Shown one piece after another: positions 29,664-36,930 of a DNA stretch of 50,880 bases. The position numbers and the translations under genes are program-made. This DNA comes from a virus, in IMG/VR virus record IMGVR_UViG_3300045988_175742; one strand, 5' to 3'. How positions within the stretch are numbered: position 1 is the stretch's first letter; the number at the start of each line of letters is the position of its first letter. Under the pieces are notes generated by a model. The model was not told the origin of the DNA, did not search any database, and worked only from the letters and a program-made list of their open reading frames with translations.

Positions 29664-30272
29664 TTATTCTTTAGGCATTGCTCTAACACCTGCAAAATGG
29701 AAACCGAATGCATTTGCATTGTTTTCTCCACCTGGTGCTCCTTTAGAAGCAGTACCTTTTGTAAATGTTGGTAATGAAGGTTCATCTTTTGGTTTTTCAA
29801 CAACGAATGCTCCTGCATCCGATTCTTTCAAACCTTTGATATATTCATCCGCTCCAATGAATTTGCCGTCTTTTAATTCAAAATTTTGTTCCTTGAATTG
29901 AGAAATGATTCCACGTTTGGCACTTTCAGAAGTAAAGTTCATTCCTGCAAAGTATGAGTTAGTAGCAAAGTCTCTTTCTTGTTGAGTCAATTTATTGTTC
30001 AACTCTGCAGTTTTATCCTTATATTTCTTTTCCCATTCAGCAGCTGAATTTTTGATACCTTCAATATCCATATCCTTGTATGACTTGATTTGCTTATTTG
30101 CATCATTCAAGGAGTTTTGAGCTGATTCATATTTTGTGTTCAATGTTTCTAGCTCTTTTGTTTTTGATTCGACTTCTTTGCGGTATTTTTCAATGTCATT
30201 ACCGTTTTCAGTCATGATTTGATTAACTTGTTCATCTGTTAATCCTAAATTTTTTAAAAATTCTCTTTTCAT
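29664..30272 (-). CDS. Scaffolding protein (GP20/DUF4355-like)
   Basis: 202 aa, coiled coil, MKREFLKNLGLTDEQVNQIM start. Confidence 0.8.
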   Translation of the reverse strand: MKREFLKNLGLTDEQVNQIMTENGNDIEKYRKEVESKTKELETLNTKYESAQNSLNDANKQIKSYKDMDIEGIKNSAAEWEKKYKDKTAELNNKLTQQERDFATNSYFAGMNFTSESAKRGIISQFKEQNFELKDGKFIGADEYIKGLKESDAGAFVVEKPKDEPSLPTFTKGTASKGAPGGENNANAFGFHFAGVRAMPKE

Positions 30273-30709: not shown

Positions 30710-31450
30710 TTAATTGTTATAATCCAAATTCATTGCCAACTGACTGTTATATTCTTTGATTTTCAAGCTTGTATTGACTTCGGGAGACCATGATTCCAAA
30801 TAATTTTTAGCATTTTCATAATCAGTCTTTAGGGTATCTCGATATGAGCCTAATTTGAAATACTTTTTATAGTCTCTCCAGATGCTACTGAAAAGCTTTC
30901 TGCTCATTAATTGGTAAGCTCTTGAATCAATACCGCCTAGTGCACTAATTACAGTTGTTTTAGCAATTCTTTCAAGCGTATATTGTTGTGAACTGTCAAT
31001 CGTTGTTGATTTTTCTAAATCAGATACCTTTTCTTCAAGAACATCAACTCTTTGAGCTGTTTGTTCATGGGCTTTAATTGTCAACATAAGCAATTCTCTT
31101 GGGTCAGTTGGCACTTTAGCATATGAACCTGTCTTTCTCAAAGTTGGAAGAACTTCACTTGTTACCCAATGTTTGAACTTTTTAGCGGATTCTAACTTAC
31201 TTGATAAGATTAATGAATACAACCCTGATTCATTAATAATAATTGGCTTTTGTTCTCTACCCATGGAGTCGTGAATCACGACCCCATCTCTTTTATCATC
31301 AGAATCAATATGTCTTGCAAGAGAATCTCTTACATTTTTATATCCAAGTGCTTCAGCAACATCCTTTCCAACAAACCAAGGTTCATTGTCAATCACCAAG
31401 CTTCTTACATTTCCAAATTCTTCATTGTTAAATATTTGTAGTTCTTCCAT
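30710..31450 (-). CDS. BRO-N domain antirepressor-like protein (ORF6C-like C-terminus)
   Basis: FGNVRSLVIDNEPWFVGKDVAEALGY...ESGLYSLILSSKLESAKKFKHWVTSEVLP. Confidence 0.8.
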   Translation of the reverse strand: MEELQIFNNEEFGNVRSLVIDNEPWFVGKDVAEALGYKNVRDSLARHIDSDDKRDGVVIHDSMGREQKPIIINESGLYSLILSSKLESAKKFKHWVTSEVLPTLRKTGSYAKVPTDPRELLMLTIKAHEQTAQRVDVLEEKVSDLEKSTTIDSSQQYTLERIAKTTVISALGGIDSRAYQLMSRKLFSSIWRDYKKYFKLGSYRDTLKTDYENAKNYLESWSPEVNTSLKIKEYNSQLAMNLDYNN

Positions 31451-31818: not shown

Positions 31819-31950
31819 CTATTTTTTTATACCTAAATCTCTTTTTATCAATGTGGTTATATAGCCTTTTATGGTTTGACCATTTTCGGTTGCACGAATT
31901 TTTATTTGCTTATGTAACTCTTCATCGATTTTAAGTATTAAGTTTTTCAT
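31819..31950 (-). CDS. Ribbon-helix-helix (Arc/CopG-like) protein, 43 aa
   Basis: Not in the ORF track; GAAAGGAGGG RBS; MKNLILKIDEELHKQIKIRATENGQTIKGYITTLIKRDLGIKK. Confidence 0.65.
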   Translation of the reverse strand: MKNLILKIDEELHKQIKIRATENGQTIKGYITTLIKRDLGIKK

Positions 31951-32080
31951 AGCTGTCCCTCCTTTCAAAATATATATTATCAAAATAAATATATAGTGTA
32001 AAGTAAAATATATAATTTAAACATATTAAATGACATTTATTTAAAAAGTATATATAATATACACAAGGAGGGTTTAATAT

Positions 32081-32587
32081 ATGGATAATTCAATAATATC
32101 AAAAAATATCAAAACCATTCGTCGTGATAAAATGATGACCCAAAAAGAATTTGGCAAATTGATTGGAGTAACTCAAGCTACATTGTCTACCTATGAGCAA
32201 GGACTTAAAATGCCTAATACTGATACACTGTACAATATCGCCGAAAAATGTGATATATCTATGGATTGGTTATGTGGTAGAACCAATCTAAAAAATATTG
32301 AAAATTTTGATTCGTATAGTGATGTATTCAAAACTATTGTTAAACTATGTAAAAGTGTCAAATTTTCAATAATCGAAGATTCTAATAATGTTTACAAAAA
32401 CGATGTATCACAGCACTATCTTGAACCAGGAAATACGATTGTTAATGATTTTCTAAATCGCTGGCGTAAAGTTAAAGAAATTTACGATGACAAAACCATA
32501 GATGAAGAAACTTACGATACTGTTGTAAATTCGCTTATTGAACGATATAAAGATATTGAAATCATTTACGATGATGACAAGCTCTAA
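32081..32587 (+). CDS. XRE-family HTH regulator
   Basis: MTQKEFGKLIGVTQATLSTYEQG; divergent from the RHH gene. Confidence 0.8.
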   Translation: MDNSIISKNIKTIRRDKMMTQKEFGKLIGVTQATLSTYEQGLKMPNTDTLYNIAEKCDISMDWLCGRTNLKNIENFDSYSDVFKTIVKLCKSVKFSIIEDSNNVYKNDVSQHYLEPGNTIVNDFLNRWRKVKEIYDDKTIDEETYDTVVNSLIERYKDIEIIYDDDKL

Positions 32588-32653: not shown

Positions 32654-32680
32654 AAATAAAAAGCCACTTATTCGTGGCTT
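32654..32680 (-). terminator. Terminator after the MazF-like gene
   Basis: Minus strand AAGCCAC-gaataa-GTGGCTT followed by TTTATTTT. Confidence 0.7.
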
Positions 32681-32688
32681 GATAATTT

Positions 32689-33081
32689 CTAAAGATTAGA
32701 AGTATTTACCAATATTTCTTCATCCTTAAAAAGTTCTTCAATTAATTTCATAAGTTCAGCAAATAATTCAGGAGTTACCGAACCGACTACAATATAATCA
32801 AGTTTATCTTTTTGAAAATAATGAATTTGATTAGCTTTAATAAAGCCATCTTTCTTAACCCCATCTTCAACAGTAATTTCTAAATTTTGCTTCATTGAAA
32901 GTTTCTTCTTTCGATGCTCTTCGTTTTTAAAAGAAGACATGACTGAACATGTTAGATCAAATGGCAAACCTTCAATTTTACCTTCACTGTCATTCAATAC
33001 AATGAAAGGATGATTTCTTTGACGTGTGCCATCTTCTCCAATATATTTTCTAATTAAAATAATATCTCCTACTCTGCACAT
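32689..33081 (-). CDS. PemK/MazF-like toxin
   Basis: VGDIILIRKYIG...RNHPFIVL...CSVMSS...IKANQIHYFQKDKL pattern. Confidence 0.55.
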   Translation of the reverse strand: MCRVGDIILIRKYIGEDGTRQRNHPFIVLNDSEGKIEGLPFDLTCSVMSSFKNEEHRKKKLSMKQNLEITVEDGVKKDGFIKANQIHYFQKDKLDYIVVGSVTPELFAELMKLIEELFKDEEILVNTSNL

Positions 33082-33236
33082 TTCTTTTTCTTTGGTAAAG
33101 TAGCTTTTACTTTACTTTCTCCTTTTAACACTTTTTCGCTAAATTGAAATGGAACAACTTCATCATTATCAACTTTAGCGTTTTTTTGTGTTTTAAGATT
33201 TTCGAAAAAGCTAACAGGTAATGCTTGATAAGTCAT
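33069..33236 (-). CDS. Candidate antitoxin (55 aa)
   Basis: Not in the ORF track; GGAGGTGGG RBS; overlaps the toxin start by 13 nt. Confidence 0.45.
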   Translation of the reverse strand: MTYQALPVSFFENLKTQKNAKVDNDEVVPFQFSEKVLKGESKVKATLPKKKKCAE

Positions 33237-33357: not shown

Positions 33358-33469
33358 CGCTAACTATAATTGAAATTAAACATAAGGATTTATTGAAAAA
33401 GATTCGTAATTATGAAGGAATATTAACCAGCGCAAAATTGCGCCCGTTAGAATTTTTCGTTCCAAGCAC

Positions 33470-33668: not shown

Positions 33669-33962
33669 TTACTCCTCTACATGTTTAATTGAGTATCTAA
33701 CACAACATTCATGTTCGATACAGCATCCTCGATACTTTTCCCAATCCTTGCAGAAATAAGCAATGTCAGCTTGACCTAAAAGCTTGATGGATTCTCCTAG
33801 ACACCAAAGAGGCGTTTTTGGTTCACCATCAAAGAATGAATCAATCACTTCAATTTCTTTATCAGGAAATAATTCTTTTACATTGTGCAAAACTCTTTCT
33901 CTTTCATCTAAGATTTCTTTATCCGTTTTATCTGCCATTGGCTGTGATATAAATAATTTCAT
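33669..33962 (-). CDS. DUF4406 / nucleoside 2-deoxyribosyltransferase-like protein
   Basis: MKLFISQPM...LGQADIAYFCKDWEKYRGCCIEHE pattern. Confidence 0.55.
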   Translation of the reverse strand: MKLFISQPMADKTDKEILDERERVLHNVKELFPDKEIEVIDSFFDGEPKTPLWCLGESIKLLGQADIAYFCKDWEKYRGCCIEHECCVRYSIKHVEE

Positions 33963-33974
33963 TTATGCATCCTC

Positions 33975-34451
33975 CTATTCAAAAAATTCCCAATCATCCG
34001 CTAACATATCTGTTTGTGATGGTGCCCAAGGTACAATATTTTTCTTTGCATCTGGATTATCAGTTTGTAAATTAGATGAATCTATACAAACAAAAGGATT
34101 TGTTGTTGCATCTGTTTCACATAAATGGATAAAAATTCCTTTACCGTTCCAACCTTTTCTAGCAAATTTCATCCCTCTTTTTAGATATTTGATTGCTTCA
34201 TCAAAACCAAAAGTAGCTTCTCCACCTAATTCTGGGCAGTTTTCTTCATCAGCAAGAACCCATCCATCATCAAGAATATTAGATAATGTATAAATAACTC
34301 TTTCGGTTTCTCTAATATCCATTTCTTTTCCTTCTTTGGTATGCATGATAACTGTTTTCTTTTCATCATCCCAATACCAATAACCACCCCATGAAGGTAA
34401 TTTCATTTTCATTCCTTGTTTCATTAAATCAAATGCTTTTTTAAATTCCAT
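33975..34451 (-). CDS. Tandem DUF2829 (Tad2-family-like) protein
   Basis: AGGAGAA RBS before MEFKKAF; C-terminal half FDEAIKYLKRGMKFARKGWNGKGIFI...VPWAPSQTDMLADDWEFF. Confidence 0.7.
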   Translation of the reverse strand: MEFKKAFDLMKQGMKMKLPSWGGYWYWDDEKKTVIMHTKEGKEMDIRETERVIYTLSNILDDGWVLADEENCPELGGEATFGFDEAIKYLKRGMKFARKGWNGKGIFIHLCETDATTNPFVCIDSSNLQTDNPDAKKNIVPWAPSQTDMLADDWEFFE

Positions 34452-34464
34452 AATTATTCTCCTT

Positions 34465-34722
34465 CTAACATTTAATACATTTATTTTCAAATTTCTTATA
34501 TGCGTCGAAATATAATTCTTGCTTATTGCCATTGTAGGTTAATTCGTAATACATCCCATCATCTAACGTTGTGCTTAATAACGCTTTGTGATTTTGTAAT
34601 GTTTTAGCATACCAAACAACGTAAACTTCAAAATCAGGTTGTTCCTTACTTTTATCCAAATGATCTTCTGTATATTCTCTAACTATTTTTTTGCATAAAT
34701 CTAAAAATTCATCTGAACCCAT
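34465..34722 (-). CDS. Conserved Firmicutes-phage small protein
   Basis: AAGGAG RBS before MGSDEF; VVWYAKTLQNHKALLSTTLDDGMYYELTYNG. Confidence 0.6.
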   Translation of the reverse strand: MGSDEFLDLCKKIVREYTEDHLDKSKEQPDFEVYVVWYAKTLQNHKALLSTTLDDGMYYELTYNGNKQELYFDAYKKFENKCIKC

Positions 34723-34739: not shown

Positions 34740-34886
34740 CTAAAAAATTTCTAAAATAAAAGCAATCATCATAATTAAACCGAAAATAAAAAGTGGGATA
34801 AGAATTTTCCATAACCCACAAATAAATAGATCAATAAGCTTTAAAGCAATTAAAAGAATGAACAATACTTTGATTACAGTTTTCAT
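34740..34886 (-). CDS. Small two-TM membrane protein (48 aa)
   Basis: Not in the ORF track; AAGGAGG RBS; MKTVIKVLFILLIALKLIDLFICGLWKILIPLFIFGLIMMIAFILEIF. Confidence 0.6.
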   Translation of the reverse strand: MKTVIKVLFILLIALKLIDLFICGLWKILIPLFIFGLIMMIAFILEIF

Positions 34887-34922
34887 ATGTTCCTCCTTAA
34901 ATTTGAGCAAAATAAAAACCGA

Positions 34923-35105
34923 CTATTTTTTGTCGGCTTTTTTTGGCTTGTAATATTTAGACCAAGTAGGAATGTTCCCCGGTCCTCCATCTAACTTTTC
35001 ATCTTCCTCCCATTGTTTTAGTTCCTCTTCGGTCATTGTATCCTCCGTATCGACTACAATTTCAATAACATGTGTGTGTTTTTCACTTTCTTTTTTTGAT
35101 TTCAT
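34923..35105 (-). CDS. Small acidic protein downstream of the MuF fusion (candidate immunity/partner)
   Basis: MKSKKESEKHTHVIEIVVDTEDTMTEEELKQWEEDEKL...; followed by a hairpin plus T-run. Confidence 0.5.
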   Translation of the reverse strand: MKSKKESEKHTHVIEIVVDTEDTMTEEELKQWEEDEKLDGGPGNIPTWSKYYKPKKADKK

Positions 35106-36930
35106 TGAACAATCCGCCTTTCTTAAAGAAGTCATACAGTTCTTTATCTTTATCATATAACAATTGAGGATTGCTTACAAATGTTTCATATCCTACGCTT
35201 ACATATTCTTCTAAATCGGTATAATCAATAGGATCAATCTTTATTCGTTCTCCTTTTTTCAAATTCTTATATTTTTCTGTAACATTTATATATGTTCTTC
35301 CTTGATAATTACGAATAAATCTATCTGAGTCCAGGTAGAGAAAATATTCATCATTTTTCTTTACAATTTTATATTTAGCTTCAGCGACAACATTTTTCAT
35401 GATTGAAGCTAGCTCTTCGCTTTTATATAAATTATTTTTATCAACTAGCGCATGACCTACTTCATGTGCTAAGGTACCTGACTTTAATTGCTCTTGGATA
35501 ACGAAAATAGTATTCATTTCACCATCATATGCTGTTTCTGTATTAGACTGTTTAATTTGAATTTTCTTGTTTACCAAGAATTTTGTTGCTTCTTCATGCA
35601 TGATTTTAATTTCTTTTTTTATTCCTTCTTTAAAATCATCATTATCGCTTTCAATAGTTACTTTTTTCATCATTTTTTCAACAAATTCATCTGAATTGGT
35701 AATCATTTTTATTTTAGGCTTATCTTCCTTTTTAGGCTTAAAATTGAACGGTAGCCATTCGTCATCATTGTATAATTTATTACTTTTTTTGCTTGATAAC
35801 TTACCGTTAGTAACAATCTTCTCTCTTGGATACGCTTTTTTAAGAACGTTATCAATACCATGTTCTTTCTTGAATTGAATGTTGCTTTCTTTAATGAATT
35901 GAGAACGCTTATCTTGCCATTCTCTAATCTTTTTAGCTTCTTTGGTGGAATCCACACCGCATTCATCAAGAATATTCTTTCTTTTCTTCCAAGAGCGAAT
36001 CTGACGTTCATAATATCTTTGCTTTTGTTCCAGCTCGTATTGATCATCATTCCTGTTCTTGTCAAATTCTTCGGTATCGACTAGATTGTTCTTATACTCA
36101 TAATCAGTAACCTCATAAAAAGAATGTCTACAGTTTGCTCCACCTAGACCATCAACACGACCATATCCCGTTGCCTTTTTAAAGTTCTGTAGACCTTTTA
36201 CAGGAGTATGAAGATAAAACAACTTGCCCTGCCATTCCTGATGGGATGGTCGAGCACCACCATGACTTGAAGTCTTTACAATGTTAATTCCCAACTCTTT
36301 GCAGTTGTCCATTTTAAACTTCAAAGACGTTTGATTGACACCACTTGTAACTGCTCTTTTAACTGCAGCATCCATTGAAGTTGTATGATCAGTATAGCCA
36401 ACTACTTCAATACCTTTTTGAGAAAGCTTTCTGATTGATGATTCAATGGCCTTGTCGGCATTGTTTCCTGCAACAATTTTAGAATATGCTTCATCACATG
36501 CTTTTATAAACTGCTTGTTGGTGCACTTTCTTGAAACGTTGCAAAGATTTTTGATTTCGCCTTGAGTATCCTTGATACCTTTGTTCAAATTCTTATTTGA
36601 CCTGTTCAACATGTCTTTTTTAGAAGTTTGAGCATCAGTATCTTTCAATCTCGAAAAAATATTGCTGACCGTCATTGCTATTCCATTTTTGATAGCCGAT
36701 TTTACTTTGCTTTGAGACGATTTCTTGACCTTTTGAAATTCAGTACCCGAGTATTCAAAAAACTCTCTACAGGCTTTATTTTTCCATTTTGGATACTCTT
36801 CTTCGATATCTTCTAAAGATGCAAGATTTCTTAAACGCAAACCCATCCAAATTAAAAGAAGAGTTTCCAATGTGCTGAAGTCATTTGAGACATCATCACC
36901 CGACTCTTCTAAAAATTTATCAGTTAACAT
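35083..36930 (-). CDS. MuF/SPP1 gp7-like head morphogenesis protein fused to a C-terminal HExxH metallopeptidase-like domain
   Basis: GGANCRHSFY at the MuF core; C-terminal TLAHEVGHALVD ... EEYVSVGYETF. Confidence 0.75.
   Translation of the reverse strand: MLTDKFLEESGDDVSNDFSTLETLLLIWMGLRLRNLASLEDIEEEYPKWKNKACREFFEYSGTEFQKVKKSSQSKVKSAIKNGIAMTVSNIFSRLKDTDAQTSKKDMLNRSNKNLNKGIKDTQGEIKNLCNVSRKCTNKQFIKACDEAYSKIVAGNNADKAIESSIRKLSQKGIEVVGYTDHTTSMDAAVKRAVTSGVNQTSLKFKMDNCKELGINIVKTSSHGGARPSHQEWQGKLFYLHTPVKGLQNFKKATGYGRVDGLGGANCRHSFYEVTDYEYKNNLVDTEEFDKNRNDDQYELEQKQRYYERQIRSWKKRKNILDECGVDSTKEAKKIREWQDKRSQFIKESNIQFKKEHGIDNVLKKAYPREKIVTNGKLSSKKSNKLYNDDEWLPFNFKPKKEDKPKIKMITNSDEFVEKMMKKVTIESDNDDFKEGIKKEIKIMHEEATKFLVNKKIQIKQSNTETAYDGEMNTIFVIQEQLKSGTLAHEVGHALVDKNNLYKSEELASIMKNVVAEAKYKIVKKNDEYFLYLDSDRFIRNYQGRTYINVTEKYKNLKKGERIKIDPIDYTDLEEYVSVGYETFVSNPQLLYDKDKELYDFFKKGGLFNEIKKRK

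What the first reader, a model, noticed from the sequence alone, without database searches (positions are those of the whole stretch)
33975..34451. Tandem DUF2829 protein: candidate Tad2-like sponge for immune signalling nucleotides
The C-terminal half (FGFDEAIKYLKRGMKFARKGWNGKGIFIHL...IVPWAPSQTDMLADDWEFFE) has the hallmark GWNGKG and VPW-x-x-SQTD-x-LA-x-DW motifs of DUF2829. That is the family of Tad2, which sequesters Thoeris gcADPR signals. The N-terminal half (FKKAFDLMKQGMKMKLPSWGGYWYW...ILDDGWVLAD) looks like a second, degenerate copy. As I recall, characterised Tad2 proteins are single-domain and act as homo-oligomers, so a covalent tandem could have altered or dual ligand specificity. 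The gene lies in an accessory island with other counter-defence-like genes.
Basis: partly seen in the sequence, partly recalled or inferred. Interest (0 to 1): 0.65.

Follow-up and report, generated by a model that had tools for sequence, protein, structure and literature searches.

The report
Two-domain Tad2-like phage sponge candidate
A temperate phage of gut Clostridia carries a small gene with two copies of the Tad2 fold, the fold phages use to soak up bacterial immune alarm molecules. The second copy is a textbook Tad2 domain, and the first is a conserved, undescribed relative that also occurs alone or fused to other such "sponge" domains.

Summary
Window 33975-34451 (minus strand) is a 158-aa gene with a good ribosome-binding site.

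**C-terminal domain (residues 81-158).** It matches Pfam PF11195 (Tad2-like) at 81 bits, E 9e-23. The AlphaFold2 model superposes on solved Tad2 structures (TM about 0.8). All six core gcADPR-contact residues of SPO1 Tad2 are kept: W101, N102, W142, S145, T147, D148.

**N-terminal domain (residues 1-70).** It fails the Pfam cut-off (14.5 bits). Modelled alone (pLDDT 94), its only convincing PDB matches are Tad2 structures (TM 0.72). It is not a decaying copy. It is a strongly conserved sub-type (WGGYW, DIRET, YT..N) that lacks the gcADPR residues.

**Distribution.** The N-type domain occurs alone in complete phage genomes. It is also found fused to Sequestin, Acb4, DUF6275 and DUF4406-like domains. 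The two-domain gene is common: at least 2,768 clusters and 462 species genomes, mostly gut Clostridia prophages. It sits in late-operon moron slots.

**Interpretation.** Most likely this is a signal-nucleotide sponge whose C-domain binds TIR-derived ADPR signals. The N-domain may bind a second ligand or act as an assembly partner. No binding was tested, and no neighbour matches a known counter-defence family. I rate it a new variant of a known kind, of moderate interest.

The parts
33975..34451 (-). CDS of the two-domain Tad2-like protein (158 aa plus TAA stop)
   Evidence: ORF list and sequence. PF11195 E 9e-23. phrog_1048 covers residues 1-157, E 1.4e-45. The exact protein is also called on a metagenome contig with the same neighbours.
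34458..34464 (-). Ribosome-binding site AAGGAGA, 6 nt before the ATG. It abuts the stop codon (34465-34467) of the upstream DUF6275 gene.
   Evidence: Read from the sequence.
34242..34451 (-). N-type Tad2-fold domain, residues 1-70. Conserved W21-G22-G23-Y24-W25 (WGG at 34383-34391), D45-I46-R47-E48-T49 (34305-34319), Y54-T55-x-x-N58 and W64.
   Evidence: Sub-threshold for PF11195 (14.5 bits). hhalign against the C-domain gives 84.7%. AF2 pLDDT 94. Foldseek top hits are SPO1 Tad2 and ModTad2 at TMq 0.72, plus Tad2-like viral proteins. Residue conservation.
34212..34241 (-). Conserved linker, residues 71-80 (NCPELGGEAT). It resembles the ELLGEETGT segment that precedes the Tad2 core in pdAcrIIA7.
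   Evidence: N71, L75, G76, G77 and T80 are >=95% conserved. The alignment to 9kzr_A begins at query residue 73.
33978..34211 (-). Canonical Tad2 (DUF2829) domain, residues 81-158. W101-N102-G103 lie at 34143-34151 and W142-A-P-S145-Q-T147-D148 at 34008-34028. The beta2-beta5 insertion is short (W-to-W spacing 41).
   Evidence: PF11195 at 72.9 bits on this half alone. PDB sequence hits to SPO1 Tad2, HgmTad2/AcrIIA7, ModTad2 and SptTad2. Foldseek TMt about 0.8 to 8wje/8smf. Pocket residues mapped from PMC10680739 and doi 10.1101/2023.05.01.538930. Spacing.
34465..34722 (-). Context: upstream neighbour, a DUF6275 protein (85 aa from the ATG at 34722). It recurs beside the tandem gene elsewhere and occurs fused to the N-type domain.
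   Evidence: PF19791 E 1.2e-32. Adjacent in 17 of the 80 related genome loci. Fusion protein P0188.
33669..33962 (-). Context: downstream neighbour, a 97-aa nucleoside 2-deoxyribosyltransferase-like protein. It recurs beside the tandem gene and occurs fused to the N-type domain.
   Evidence: phrog_355 E 7e-14. Adjacent in 6 of the 80 loci. Fusions P0233 and P0171. A DUF4406 fusion appears in the representative set.
34914..34941 (-). Context: terminator-like hairpin after the minor head protein gene. With the hairpin at 33429-33444, it brackets the small-gene cassette that holds the tandem gene.
   Evidence: Consensus scan: 9 terminator-like sites found against 2.5 expected. Sequence.

Best explanation
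The gene encodes a phage counter-defence 'sponge' built from two Tad2-fold modules on one chain.

**C-terminal module (inferred function).** It is a canonical, minimal Tad2. Like SPO1 Tad2, it probably oligomerises so that the W-N-G loop and the W-x-x-S-Q-T-D segment of neighbouring domains close around a TIR-made ADP-ribose-derived signal (3'cADPR/gcADPR or a related Thoeris signal). This would withhold the signal from the effector. Its beta2-beta5 insertion is shorter than that of SPO1 Tad2, so the cyclic-dinucleotide pocket seen in HgmTad2 is unlikely here.

**N-terminal module (inferred function).** It is an autonomous, conserved Tad2-fold sub-type whose invariant residues are W21, G23, W25, D45-I46-R47, T49, T55 and N58. 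It most likely forms its own oligomeric pocket for a different, still unknown nucleotide-type ligand. That would make the protein a covalent two-sponge fusion, like the known Acb4-Tad2 and Sequestin-Tad2 fusions.

**Shown here:** the gene, the family membership, both folds, the residue conservation, the modularity and the genomic context.

**Inferred:** oligomerisation, every ligand, and the anti-defence effect.
For: **C-domain**
- PF11195 scores 81 bits.
- The fold matches solved Tad2-ligand complexes at TMt about 0.8.
- The SPO1 Tad2 contacts W25/N26/W73/S76/T78/D79 map to W101/N102/W142/S145/T147/D148. The HgmTad2 contacts W21/N22/G23/W87/S90/T92/D93 are likewise kept (alignments; residues from doi 10.1101/2023.05.01.538930 and PMC10680739).
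- GWNGK is present in 109 of the top 120 homologues, and W..SQ.DM in 113 of 120.

**N-domain**
- It has the Tad2 fold.
- It is strongly conserved.
- It exists as a stand-alone gene in complete phages: CP51 gp006, RG-TP1 gp24 and phiCT19406A gp36.
- In CP51 it directly abuts a PF13876 (Acb4-family) gene.
- Among 147 representatives it is fused to PF21825 (Sequestin), PF13876 (Acb4), DUF6275, DUF4406 and others.
- Proteins with 92-100% identical N-domains carry unrelated C-domain insertion cassettes, which argues for modular rather than interlocked domains.

**Precedent**
- Sponge-sponge fusions block two systems at once (PMC12265669).
- The Tad2 family as a whole inhibits Thoeris I/II/IV, CBASS and Pycsar (PMC12393519).
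Against: - No binding, oligomer or phenotype data exist for any member of this two-domain family.
- The N-domain lacks N26, S76, T78 and D79 equivalents, so it may bind nothing.
- The linker is short and conserved, and the full-length model has pTM 0.68. Both would also fit a fixed intramolecular N-C arrangement.
- The gene sits in late operons, either head morphogenesis to scaffold or holin to endolysin. This is not an obvious place for an early-acting immune inhibitor.
- No neighbour is a known anti-defence gene.
- I could not check whether the hosts carry Thoeris or other TIR systems.
Confidence: 0.5

Rival explanations
1. Pseudo-tetramer model. The N- and C-domains of one chain pair with each other, taking the place of two protomers of a Tad2 tetramer, so a dimer of the tandem protein imitates the homotetramer. 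The ligand pockets would then be asymmetric: W-N-G and SQTD from the C-domain, and W-G-G, DIRET and YT..N from the N-domain. That would change specificity for a single class of ADPR-type ligand rather than adding a second, independent site.
For: - In Tad2 every pocket is built from two protomers (doi 10.1101/2023.05.01.538930; PMC10680739).
- The linker is only about 10-12 residues long and highly conserved.
- Linker pLDDT is about 87 and the full-model pTM is 0.68.
- The N-domain keeps the Trp of the beta1-beta2 loop (W21).
Against: - The N-type domain lives alone and with many non-Tad2 partners.
- The C-domain insertion is swapped without any change in the N-domain.
- The conserved linker is also explained as part of the C-domain, because the same motif precedes the core in pdAcrIIA7.
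Confidence: 0.2
2. The N-domain is a regulatory or assembly appendage without a ligand of its own, like the helical head domain of pdAcrIIA7. Alternatively, the protein is an AcrIIA7-like RNA binder that titrates tracrRNA rather than small signals.
For: - In pdAcrIIA7 an N-terminal head domain switches off the tracrRNA-binding, anti-Cas9 activity of the Tad2 core (PMC13133391).
- The best PDB sequence hit is AcrIIA7, 9kzr_A.
- The lysines proposed for RNA binding (K58, K66, K71 of pdAcrIIA7) align to K91, K99 and K104 (mapped from the alignment).
Against: - Those lysines belong to the LKRG/RKGWNGK motifs shared by nearly all Tad2 proteins, so they do not discriminate.
- An independent study found no anti-Cas9 activity for HgmTad2 (PMC10680739).
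- A mere appendage would not be expected to be this conserved (39% of N-domain positions >=90% conserved, against 29% for residues 81-158), nor to exist as a stand-alone phage gene.
Confidence: 0.1
3. The protein sequesters a housekeeping second messenger of the host (for example c-di-AMP, c-di-GMP or (p)ppGpp) to reprogramme host physiology late in infection or in the lysogen, rather than blocking an immune signal.
For: - HgmTad2 binds c-di-GMP with picomolar affinity (PMC10680739).
- The gene sits in moron slots of temperate phages.
- Terminator-like hairpins bracket its cassette, which would allow separate expression.
Against: - The insertion that forms the dinucleotide pocket in HgmTad2 is much shorter here: W-to-W spacing is 41 against 66 (PMC10680739).
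- The ADPR-pocket residues are the conserved ones.
Confidence: 0.1
4. The protein is a structural or assembly accessory of the head or lysis module, and its likeness to Tad2 says nothing about its function.
For: - It lies between the minor head protein and the scaffold gene here and in at least 13 related loci.
- There are weak Foldseek hits to a neck protein of phage 812 (8qkh; E 0.12-0.14, TM 0.31-0.37).
Against: - The same gene sits between holin and endolysin in other phages, so it is not tied to head assembly.
- The neck-protein match is far weaker than the Tad2 matches.
- The ligand-contact residues are conserved.
Confidence: 0.04

Closest known systems
Tad2 of Bacillus phage SPO1 (gp34.65; PDB 8sme/8smf/8smg, 8wje), the founding DUF2829/PF11195 sponge for 1''-3' gcADPR
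   Same: - The C-domain has the same fold (Foldseek TMt about 0.8, 35% identity).
- It keeps all six named contact residues W25/N26/W73/S76/T78/D79 (doi 10.1101/2023.05.01.538930).
- The insertion is similarly short (W-to-W 41 against 48).
   Different: - SPO1 Tad2 is a single 89-aa domain that forms a homotetramer.
- Here a second, diverged Tad2-fold domain and a conserved linker precede it.
- The secondary adenine-side and water-coordinating positions differ: H71 maps to V140, and (approximately, across a gapped region) D67 to K136.
- The oligomeric state and the ligand are unknown.
HgmTad2 / AcrIIA7 (PDB 8kbi-8kbm, 9kzr)
   Same: - It is the best PDB sequence match (E 1.9e-11).
- The gcADPR residues W21/N22/G23/W87/S90/T92/D93 are conserved.
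- The segment before helix alpha1 (ELGGEATF against ELLGEETGTF) is shared with full-length pdAcrIIA7, which also carries an N-terminal extra domain (PMC13133391).
   Different: - HgmTad2 has a long beta2-beta5 insertion (W-to-W 66) that binds cyclic dinucleotides (PMC10680739). The window protein has 41.
- The extra domain of pdAcrIIA7 is a 48-residue two-helix head, not a Tad2 fold.
Fused sponges: Acb4-Tad2 (Pasteurella phage Pm86) and Sequestin(PF21825)-Tad2 (PMC12265669)
   Same: - An N-terminal small module is fused to a C-terminal Tad2 domain in a phage protein of about 150-200 aa.
- Pm86 itself appears among the tblastn hits to the C-half (H16).
- The N-type domain of this family is also found fused to PF21825 and PF13876.
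   Different: - Here the partner is neither Acb4 nor Sequestin, and has no such Pfam hit.
- It is a diverged member of the Tad2 fold itself, so the fusion is homotypic at fold level.
- Activity against two systems has been shown for Pm86 and not for this family.
PHROG phrog_1048 (unknown function)
   Same: It matches the full length, residues 1-157 (E 1.4e-45). The two-domain architecture is therefore already a recognised phage protein family.
   Different: The PHROG entry carries no function, and nothing in the papers I searched describes the architecture.

Membership tests
Tad2-like / DUF2829 (Pfam PF11195) | Sequence match to the family HMM above the curated gathering score (25 bits) | tested here: met
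   The whole protein scores 81.1 bits, E 9e-23. The C-half alone scores 72.9 bits. The N-half alone scores 14.5 bits and is NOT above threshold.
Tad2-like / DUF2829 (Pfam PF11195) | [quoted passage not shown] | tested here: met
   AF2 full model pLDDT 89.3. The C-domain superposes on 8wje/8smf/8v3e/8kbj. The N-domain model (pLDDT 94) matches 8wje_E and 8v3e_B at TMq 0.72, with the next hits below 0.40. Viral Tad2-like models also match. These are predicted structures, not solved ones.
Tad2-like / DUF2829 (Pfam PF11195) | gcADPR-pocket residues (SPO1 W25, N26, W73, S76, T78, D79; HgmTad2 W21, N22, G23, W87, S90, T92, D93) | tested here: met
   C-domain: W101, N102, G103, W142, S145, T147 and D148 align exactly. 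The N-domain does not meet this feature: it has W21-G22-G23 and no SQTD.
Tad2-like / DUF2829 (Pfam PF11195) | Homotetramer with ligand pockets at protomer interfaces | not testable with these tools
   No multimer prediction and no model coordinates were available. This needs AF-multimer/AF3, SEC-MALS or crystallography.
Tad2-like / DUF2829 (Pfam PF11195) | Sequesters a TIR-derived or cyclic-nucleotide immune signal and rescues phage from the cognate system | not testable with these tools
   Requires biochemistry and phage assays.
Characterised single-domain Tad2 sponges (SPO1 Tad2, HgmTad2, ModTad2, SptTad2) | One Tad2 domain per chain, about 88-104 residues | tested here: not met
   158 aa with two Tad2-fold domains.
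AcrIIA7 (tracrRNA-binding anti-CRISPR form of the Tad2 core) | Tad2 core without a head domain, with a positively charged groove (K58, K66, K71, K93, R101) that binds tracrRNA | tested here: inconclusive
   K91, K99 and K104 align to K58, K66 and K71, but these are generic Tad2 motif residues. K93 and R101 lie in the divergent insertion. An N-terminal domain is present, and in pdAcrIIA7 such a domain abolishes the activity (PMC13133391).
Fused two-sponge proteins (Acb4-Tad2, Sequestin-Tad2) | N-terminal partner belongs to PF13876 or PF21825 | tested here: not met
   The Pfam scan of the N-half at E<=10 returns only PF11195.

The most novel reading that the evidence does not exclude
The N-terminal WGGYW/DIRET domain may be an unrecognised branch of the Tad2 fold with its own ligand. 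That ligand could be an immune signal of gut Clostridia for which no sponge is yet known. The tandem protein would then be a covalent dual-specificity sponge.

By the same fusion-and-adjacency logic that uncovered Sequestin, its recurrent partners DUF6275 and the small DUF4406/deoxyribosyltransferase-like proteins would be further, undescribed counter-defence families.
Probability: 0.3. Interest if true: 0.7.

Novelty: new variant of a known kind. Interest (0 to 1): 0.5.

Why it matters
Sponge proteins are the main way phages are known to silence signalling-based immunity (Thoeris, CBASS, Pycsar, type III CRISPR). The Tad2 family has turned out to be the most versatile of them.

This gene represents a large, uncharacterised branch: thousands of sequence clusters in prophages of human and animal gut Clostridia. 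In this branch a canonical Tad2 is permanently joined to a second, conserved Tad2-fold module with a different putative pocket.

- If the N-module binds its own ligand, it would extend the repertoire of signals that phages can sequester.
- It would also give a handle on defence signalling in gut anaerobes, where almost nothing has been tested.
- Its fusion partners would nominate new anti-defence families.
- If the N-module only reshapes the pocket, it would be a natural example of turning a homo-oligomeric sponge into a pseudo-hetero-oligomer.

Either outcome can be tested directly with existing assays.

Tried and rejected
- **Nucleotide search of the 8.5-kb region against GenBank phages:** megablast found no match. 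Context therefore had to come from protein-level searches.
- **Word-indexed protein search with the N-domain alone:** it returned only 27 short proteins. Most were fragments or frameshifted copies of the tandem gene, so they were not usable as evidence for stand-alone genes. The stand-alone genes were instead confirmed in complete phage genomes.
- **Structure prediction including the two GenBank phage sequences:** I re-ran it without them.
- **Known counter-defence or defence neighbours:** PADLOC found nothing except generic HTH hits. Pfam and PHROGs gave DUF6275, an NDT-like protein, a PemK-like toxin, XRE, RHH and a Bro-N/ORF6C antirepressor. I rejected the reading 'island of counter-defence genes' as unsupported.
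- **PDB sequence searches for the two neighbours:** only de novo design artefacts and one weak hit.
- **Supplementary tables of the Tad2 diversity screen:** none are held, so I could not check whether a two-domain member has already been assayed.
- **Structural-protein reading:** the weak phage-812 neck hits were considered and rejected.
- **Recent in-gene duplication:** rejected in favour of a fusion of two long-diverged lineages. The N-type domain exists alone and with many other partners, and is only about 27% identical to the C-domain.
- **Not possible here:** superposing the two domains of the model, or inspecting the inter-domain geometry or PAE, because no coordinates are exposed.
Full report
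**1. The observation**

The ORF list shows a minus-strand ORF at 33975..34532. The ATG at 34451 is preceded by AAGGAGA at 34464-34458, six bases upstream. The gene is packed between co-directional genes, with 12-13 bp gaps on either side.

Pfam PF11195 (Tad2-like, formerly DUF2829) hits at E 9e-23 and 81.1 bits against a gathering score of 25. The best stretch is residues 83-156. PHROG phrog_1048 (unknown function) covers the whole length at E 1.4e-45. The PDB sequence search returns only Tad2 proteins with significance: AcrIIA7/HgmTad2, SPO1 gp34.65, ModTad2 and SptTad2.

**2. The C-terminal domain is a canonical Tad2**

The AF2 model of the full protein has pLDDT 89.3 and pTM 0.68. The first 24 Foldseek hits in the PDB are all Tad2 structures. 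TMt is about 0.8 and identity 29-35% to SPO1 Tad2, both apo and in complex with 1''-3' and 1''-2' gcADPR.

Yirmiya et al. (doi 10.1101/2023.05.01.538930) name the SPO1 Tad2 contacts as W25, N26, W73, S76, T78 and D79. In the alignment these are W101, N102, W142, S145, T147 and D148. Li et al. (PMC10680739) name W21, N22, G23, W87, L88, S90, T92 and D93 for HgmTad2. These align to W101, N102, G103, W142, A143, S145, T147 and D148.

Among the 120 best homologues, GWNGK occurs in 109 and a W..SQ.DM motif in 113. The residue at the T147 position varies between T, S, A and E.

The distance between the two pocket tryptophans is 41 residues here. It is 48 in SPO1 Tad2 and 66 in HgmTad2 (PMC10680739). 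The long insertion that makes the cyclic-dinucleotide pocket of HgmTad2 is therefore absent.

**3. The N-terminal domain has a second Tad2 fold but is a distinct sub-type**

On its own it scores 14.5 bits (E 0.054) against PF11195, below threshold. Only residues 1-28 match. Several independent tests still support homology:
- BLASTP of N against C gives E 0.001 at 27% identity.
- hhalign of the N- and C-halves of a 40-sequence alignment gives 84.7% probability and E 6.7e-6 over helix alpha1, strand beta1 and the W-x-G loop.
- A profile of 22 N-domains finds Tad2 chains at E about 0.03, just below a chance hit to a camelid antibody fragment at E 0.022. A collinear weak second stretch (LSNILSDEWVIAD against VSDILAEDWNIVE) lies at the C-terminal end.
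- 21 of 22 N-domains hit PF11195 at E<=1, with the best at 5.6e-7.

Modelled alone, residues 1-70 reach pLDDT 94 and pTM 0.81. The order of secondary-structure elements is the same as in the C-domain. The two top PDB matches are SPO1 Tad2 and ModTad2 at TMq 0.72, and all other hits fall below 0.40. In the viral model library the top hits are a stand-alone homologue (TMq 0.93) and then proteins annotated as Tad2-like/DUF2829.

The domain is not degenerate. Across 105 full-length homologues, 39% of N-domain positions are >=90% conserved, against 29% for residues 81-158. Even across 147 representatives of 50%-identity clusters, G23 and W25 are invariant. W21, Y24, W27, D45, I46, R47 and T55 are >=90% conserved.

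The conserved residues fall in two places. One is the beta1-beta2 loop (W21-G-G-Y-W). The other is the segment between the fourth strand and the short helix (D45-I-R-E-T49 and Y54-T55-x-x-N58). These are the two segments that line the ligand pocket in Tad2. The chemistry is different, though: there is no Asn after the Trp, no SQTD, and an invariant Arg. Placing these residues in a pocket is my inference from the secondary-structure order, because I could not inspect coordinates.

**4. How common it is and where it sits**

The word-indexed search finds 2,768 clusters (90% identity) at E<=1e-3. Nearly all of the best 120 are full-length two-domain proteins of 158-175 aa. A scan of one genome per species confirms 462 relatives. 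The 80 best loci kept are almost all from gut Clostridia: Blautia, Coprococcus, Dorea, Eubacterium, Ruminococcus and Lachnospiraceae MAGs. Cultured phages with the full-length gene include Dorea phage DO134P1 and Ruminococcus gnavus phage phiRg507T2_3.

The window itself is a temperate siphovirus-type genome. It has an integrase, ImmA/XRE, RecT, YqaJ, an endolysin, terminase, portal and tail genes.

The gene lies in a roughly 4.8-kb insertion of small genes between the minor head protein gene (35083-36930) and the scaffold gene (29664-30272). The same slot holds it, or the stand-alone N-domain, in DO134P1, CP51, RG-TP1 and phiCT19406A, and in at least 13 of the 80 genome loci.

A Pfam census of 146 near neighbours shows two recurrent slots: minor capsid/Mu-F to scaffold, and holin to endolysin. 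These are classical moron positions in late operons. None of the 25 most frequent families in that census is a known anti-defence family, and none of the window's neighbours hits one.

Terminator-like hairpins at 34941-34914 and 33444-33429 bracket a five-gene cassette: a 48-aa membrane peptide, DUF6275, the tandem gene, an NDT-like protein and a 61-aa ORF.

**5. Modularity**

A profile of the N-domain, searched against 1.84 billion representatives, finds 823 clusters at E<=1e-3. I classified the top 147 with local HMMs:
- About 70 carry the N-type domain followed by a C-type domain.
- 41 are N only. Some of these are fragments, but complete phage genomes prove that stand-alone genes exist.
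- 23 are N followed by something else.
- 8 have something else before N.

Pfam partners include PF21825 (Sequestin), PF13876 (Acb4), DUF6275, DUF4406, DUF1653, dUTPase and RyR. In Clostridium phage CP51 the stand-alone N-domain gene abuts a PF13876 gene, stop to start.

P0188 is an N-domain-DUF6275 fusion. P0233 and P0171 are N-domain-NDT-like fusions. These are the same two families that flank the gene in the window and in other loci: 17 and 6 of 80 respectively.

Within the tandem family, the C-domain insertion (residues 107-138) has a mean pairwise identity of 0.35, against 0.66-0.77 for the other parts. Proteins with 92-100% identical N-domains carry insertions that are about 5% identical. 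That looks like cassette exchange. Some members have a RyR domain inserted there, a third Tad2-like domain, or an extra roughly 80-aa N-terminal domain with no Pfam match.

**6. Mechanism**

Established knowledge:
- Tad2 is a homotetramer that encloses gcADPR between protomers (doi 10.1101/2023.05.01.538930).
- Family members also sequester His-ADPR, N7-cADPR, cyclic dinucleotides and cUMP/cCMP, sometimes in separate pockets (PMC10680739, PMC12393519).
- Tad2 is often fused to other sponges, and one such fusion blocks two systems (PMC12265669).

On that basis, the best-supported reading is a two-module sponge. The C-domain binds a TIR-derived ADPR-type signal, inferred from the fully conserved pocket. 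The N-domain is an autonomous module with its own conserved site, inferred from its independence, conservation and sponge-rich company.

The main rival is a pseudo-tetramer in which the N- and C-domains jointly form asymmetric pockets. The short conserved linker fits this. However, the same motif precedes the core in pdAcrIIA7, so it may simply belong to the C-domain. Other rivals are a regulatory head or RNA-binding AcrIIA7-like role (PMC13133391), sequestration of a housekeeping messenger, and a structural role. The late-operon location is a mild argument against an early-acting inhibitor and is unexplained.

**7. Comparison and novelty**

The protein is a member of PF11195 through its C-domain. 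It differs from every characterised Tad2 in having a second Tad2-fold domain. It differs from known fused sponges in that the partner is neither Acb4 nor Sequestin.

Two full-text searches found no description of a tandem DUF2829 protein or of the WGGYW motif. The supplementary tables that would show whether one has already been assayed are not held. The architecture itself is already a PHROG family of unknown function.

I therefore rate it a new variant of a known kind. It is moderately interesting: the family assignment is ordinary, and the undescribed N-type module and its fusion network are the part worth following.

**8. Verdict**

- Confidence in the sponge mechanism is about 0.5, and about 0.3 that the N-domain binds a separate ligand.
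- Interest is 0.5.

Noticed in passing
window 34465-34722 (-) and 33669-33962 (-); proteins P0188, P0233, P0171: The two genes flanking the tandem gene are a DUF6275 protein and a 97-aa nucleoside-2-deoxyribosyltransferase-like protein. Both recur next to it in other prophages (17 and 6 of 80 loci). Both also exist as direct fusions to the N-type Tad2-fold domain. This Rosetta-stone link suggests a shared, unknown function.
   Followed up: partly
L001 (Clostridium phage CP51) 2501-2707 and 2707-3171: A stand-alone N-type domain gene (68 aa) is followed, stop overlapping start, by a 154-aa protein whose C-terminal half is PF13876, the Acb4 sponge family. The N-terminal 74 residues of that protein have no Pfam match.
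   Followed up: partly
homologues P0049, P0115; P0146, P0151; P0051, P0009, P0166, P0258: Several architectural variants of the family exist. One has a RyR domain (PF02026) inserted into the C-domain insertion loop. Another has three Tad2-like domains. A third is a frequent 242-257-aa form with an extra roughly 80-aa N-terminal domain (motif ILYIHMPTGEE) that has no Pfam match; P0051 alone stands for 998 member sequences.
   Followed up: partly
residues 107-138 of the protein (window 34038-34133); homologue pairs: The C-domain insertion behaves as an exchangeable cassette. Proteins with 92-100% identical N-domains carry insertions that are about 5% identical. At least four length classes occur (W-to-W spacing 41, 44, 47, 96), and the residue at the adenine-contact position 147 differs between them (T, S, A or E).
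   Followed up: partly
window 34740-34886 (-): A 48-aa strongly hydrophobic ORF (MKTVIKVLFILLIALKLIDLFICGLWKILIPLFIFGLIMMIAFILEIF) has a strong AAGGAGG ribosome-binding site. It lies directly after the terminator-like hairpin at 34941-34914 and would be the first gene of the small cassette.
   Followed up: no
window 32689-33236 (-), 32081-32587 (+), 32661-32680: A PemK/MazF-like toxin (130 aa; sub-threshold Pfam hit, phrog_21589) has an overlapping 55-aa upstream ORF that could be its antitoxin. An XRE regulator lies on the opposite strand, with a bidirectional terminator-like hairpin between them. All of this sits inside the head-gene module.
   Followed up: no
window 30710-31450 (-), 31819-31983 (-): A Bro-N/ORF6C antirepressor-like protein and a small ribbon-helix-helix protein lie in the same island, just upstream of the scaffold gene.
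   Followed up: no
window 35083-36930 (-): The 615-aa minor head protein (phrog_581, PF06152) contains an HEVGH (HExxH-type) motif within its roughly 200-residue C-terminal part, which may be a metallopeptidase-like region.
   Followed up: no
L085 (Ruminococcus phage phiRg507T2_3) 3501-4010; census: In many relatives the tandem gene sits between holin and endolysin instead of in the head module. It therefore moves between two late-operon moron slots.
   Followed up: yes
L086 (Logan ERR414262 contig, 35 kb): The exact protein, with identical neighbour order, is present on independent public metagenome contigs (6 contigs read). The phage is therefore not unique to this window's source.
   Followed up: no
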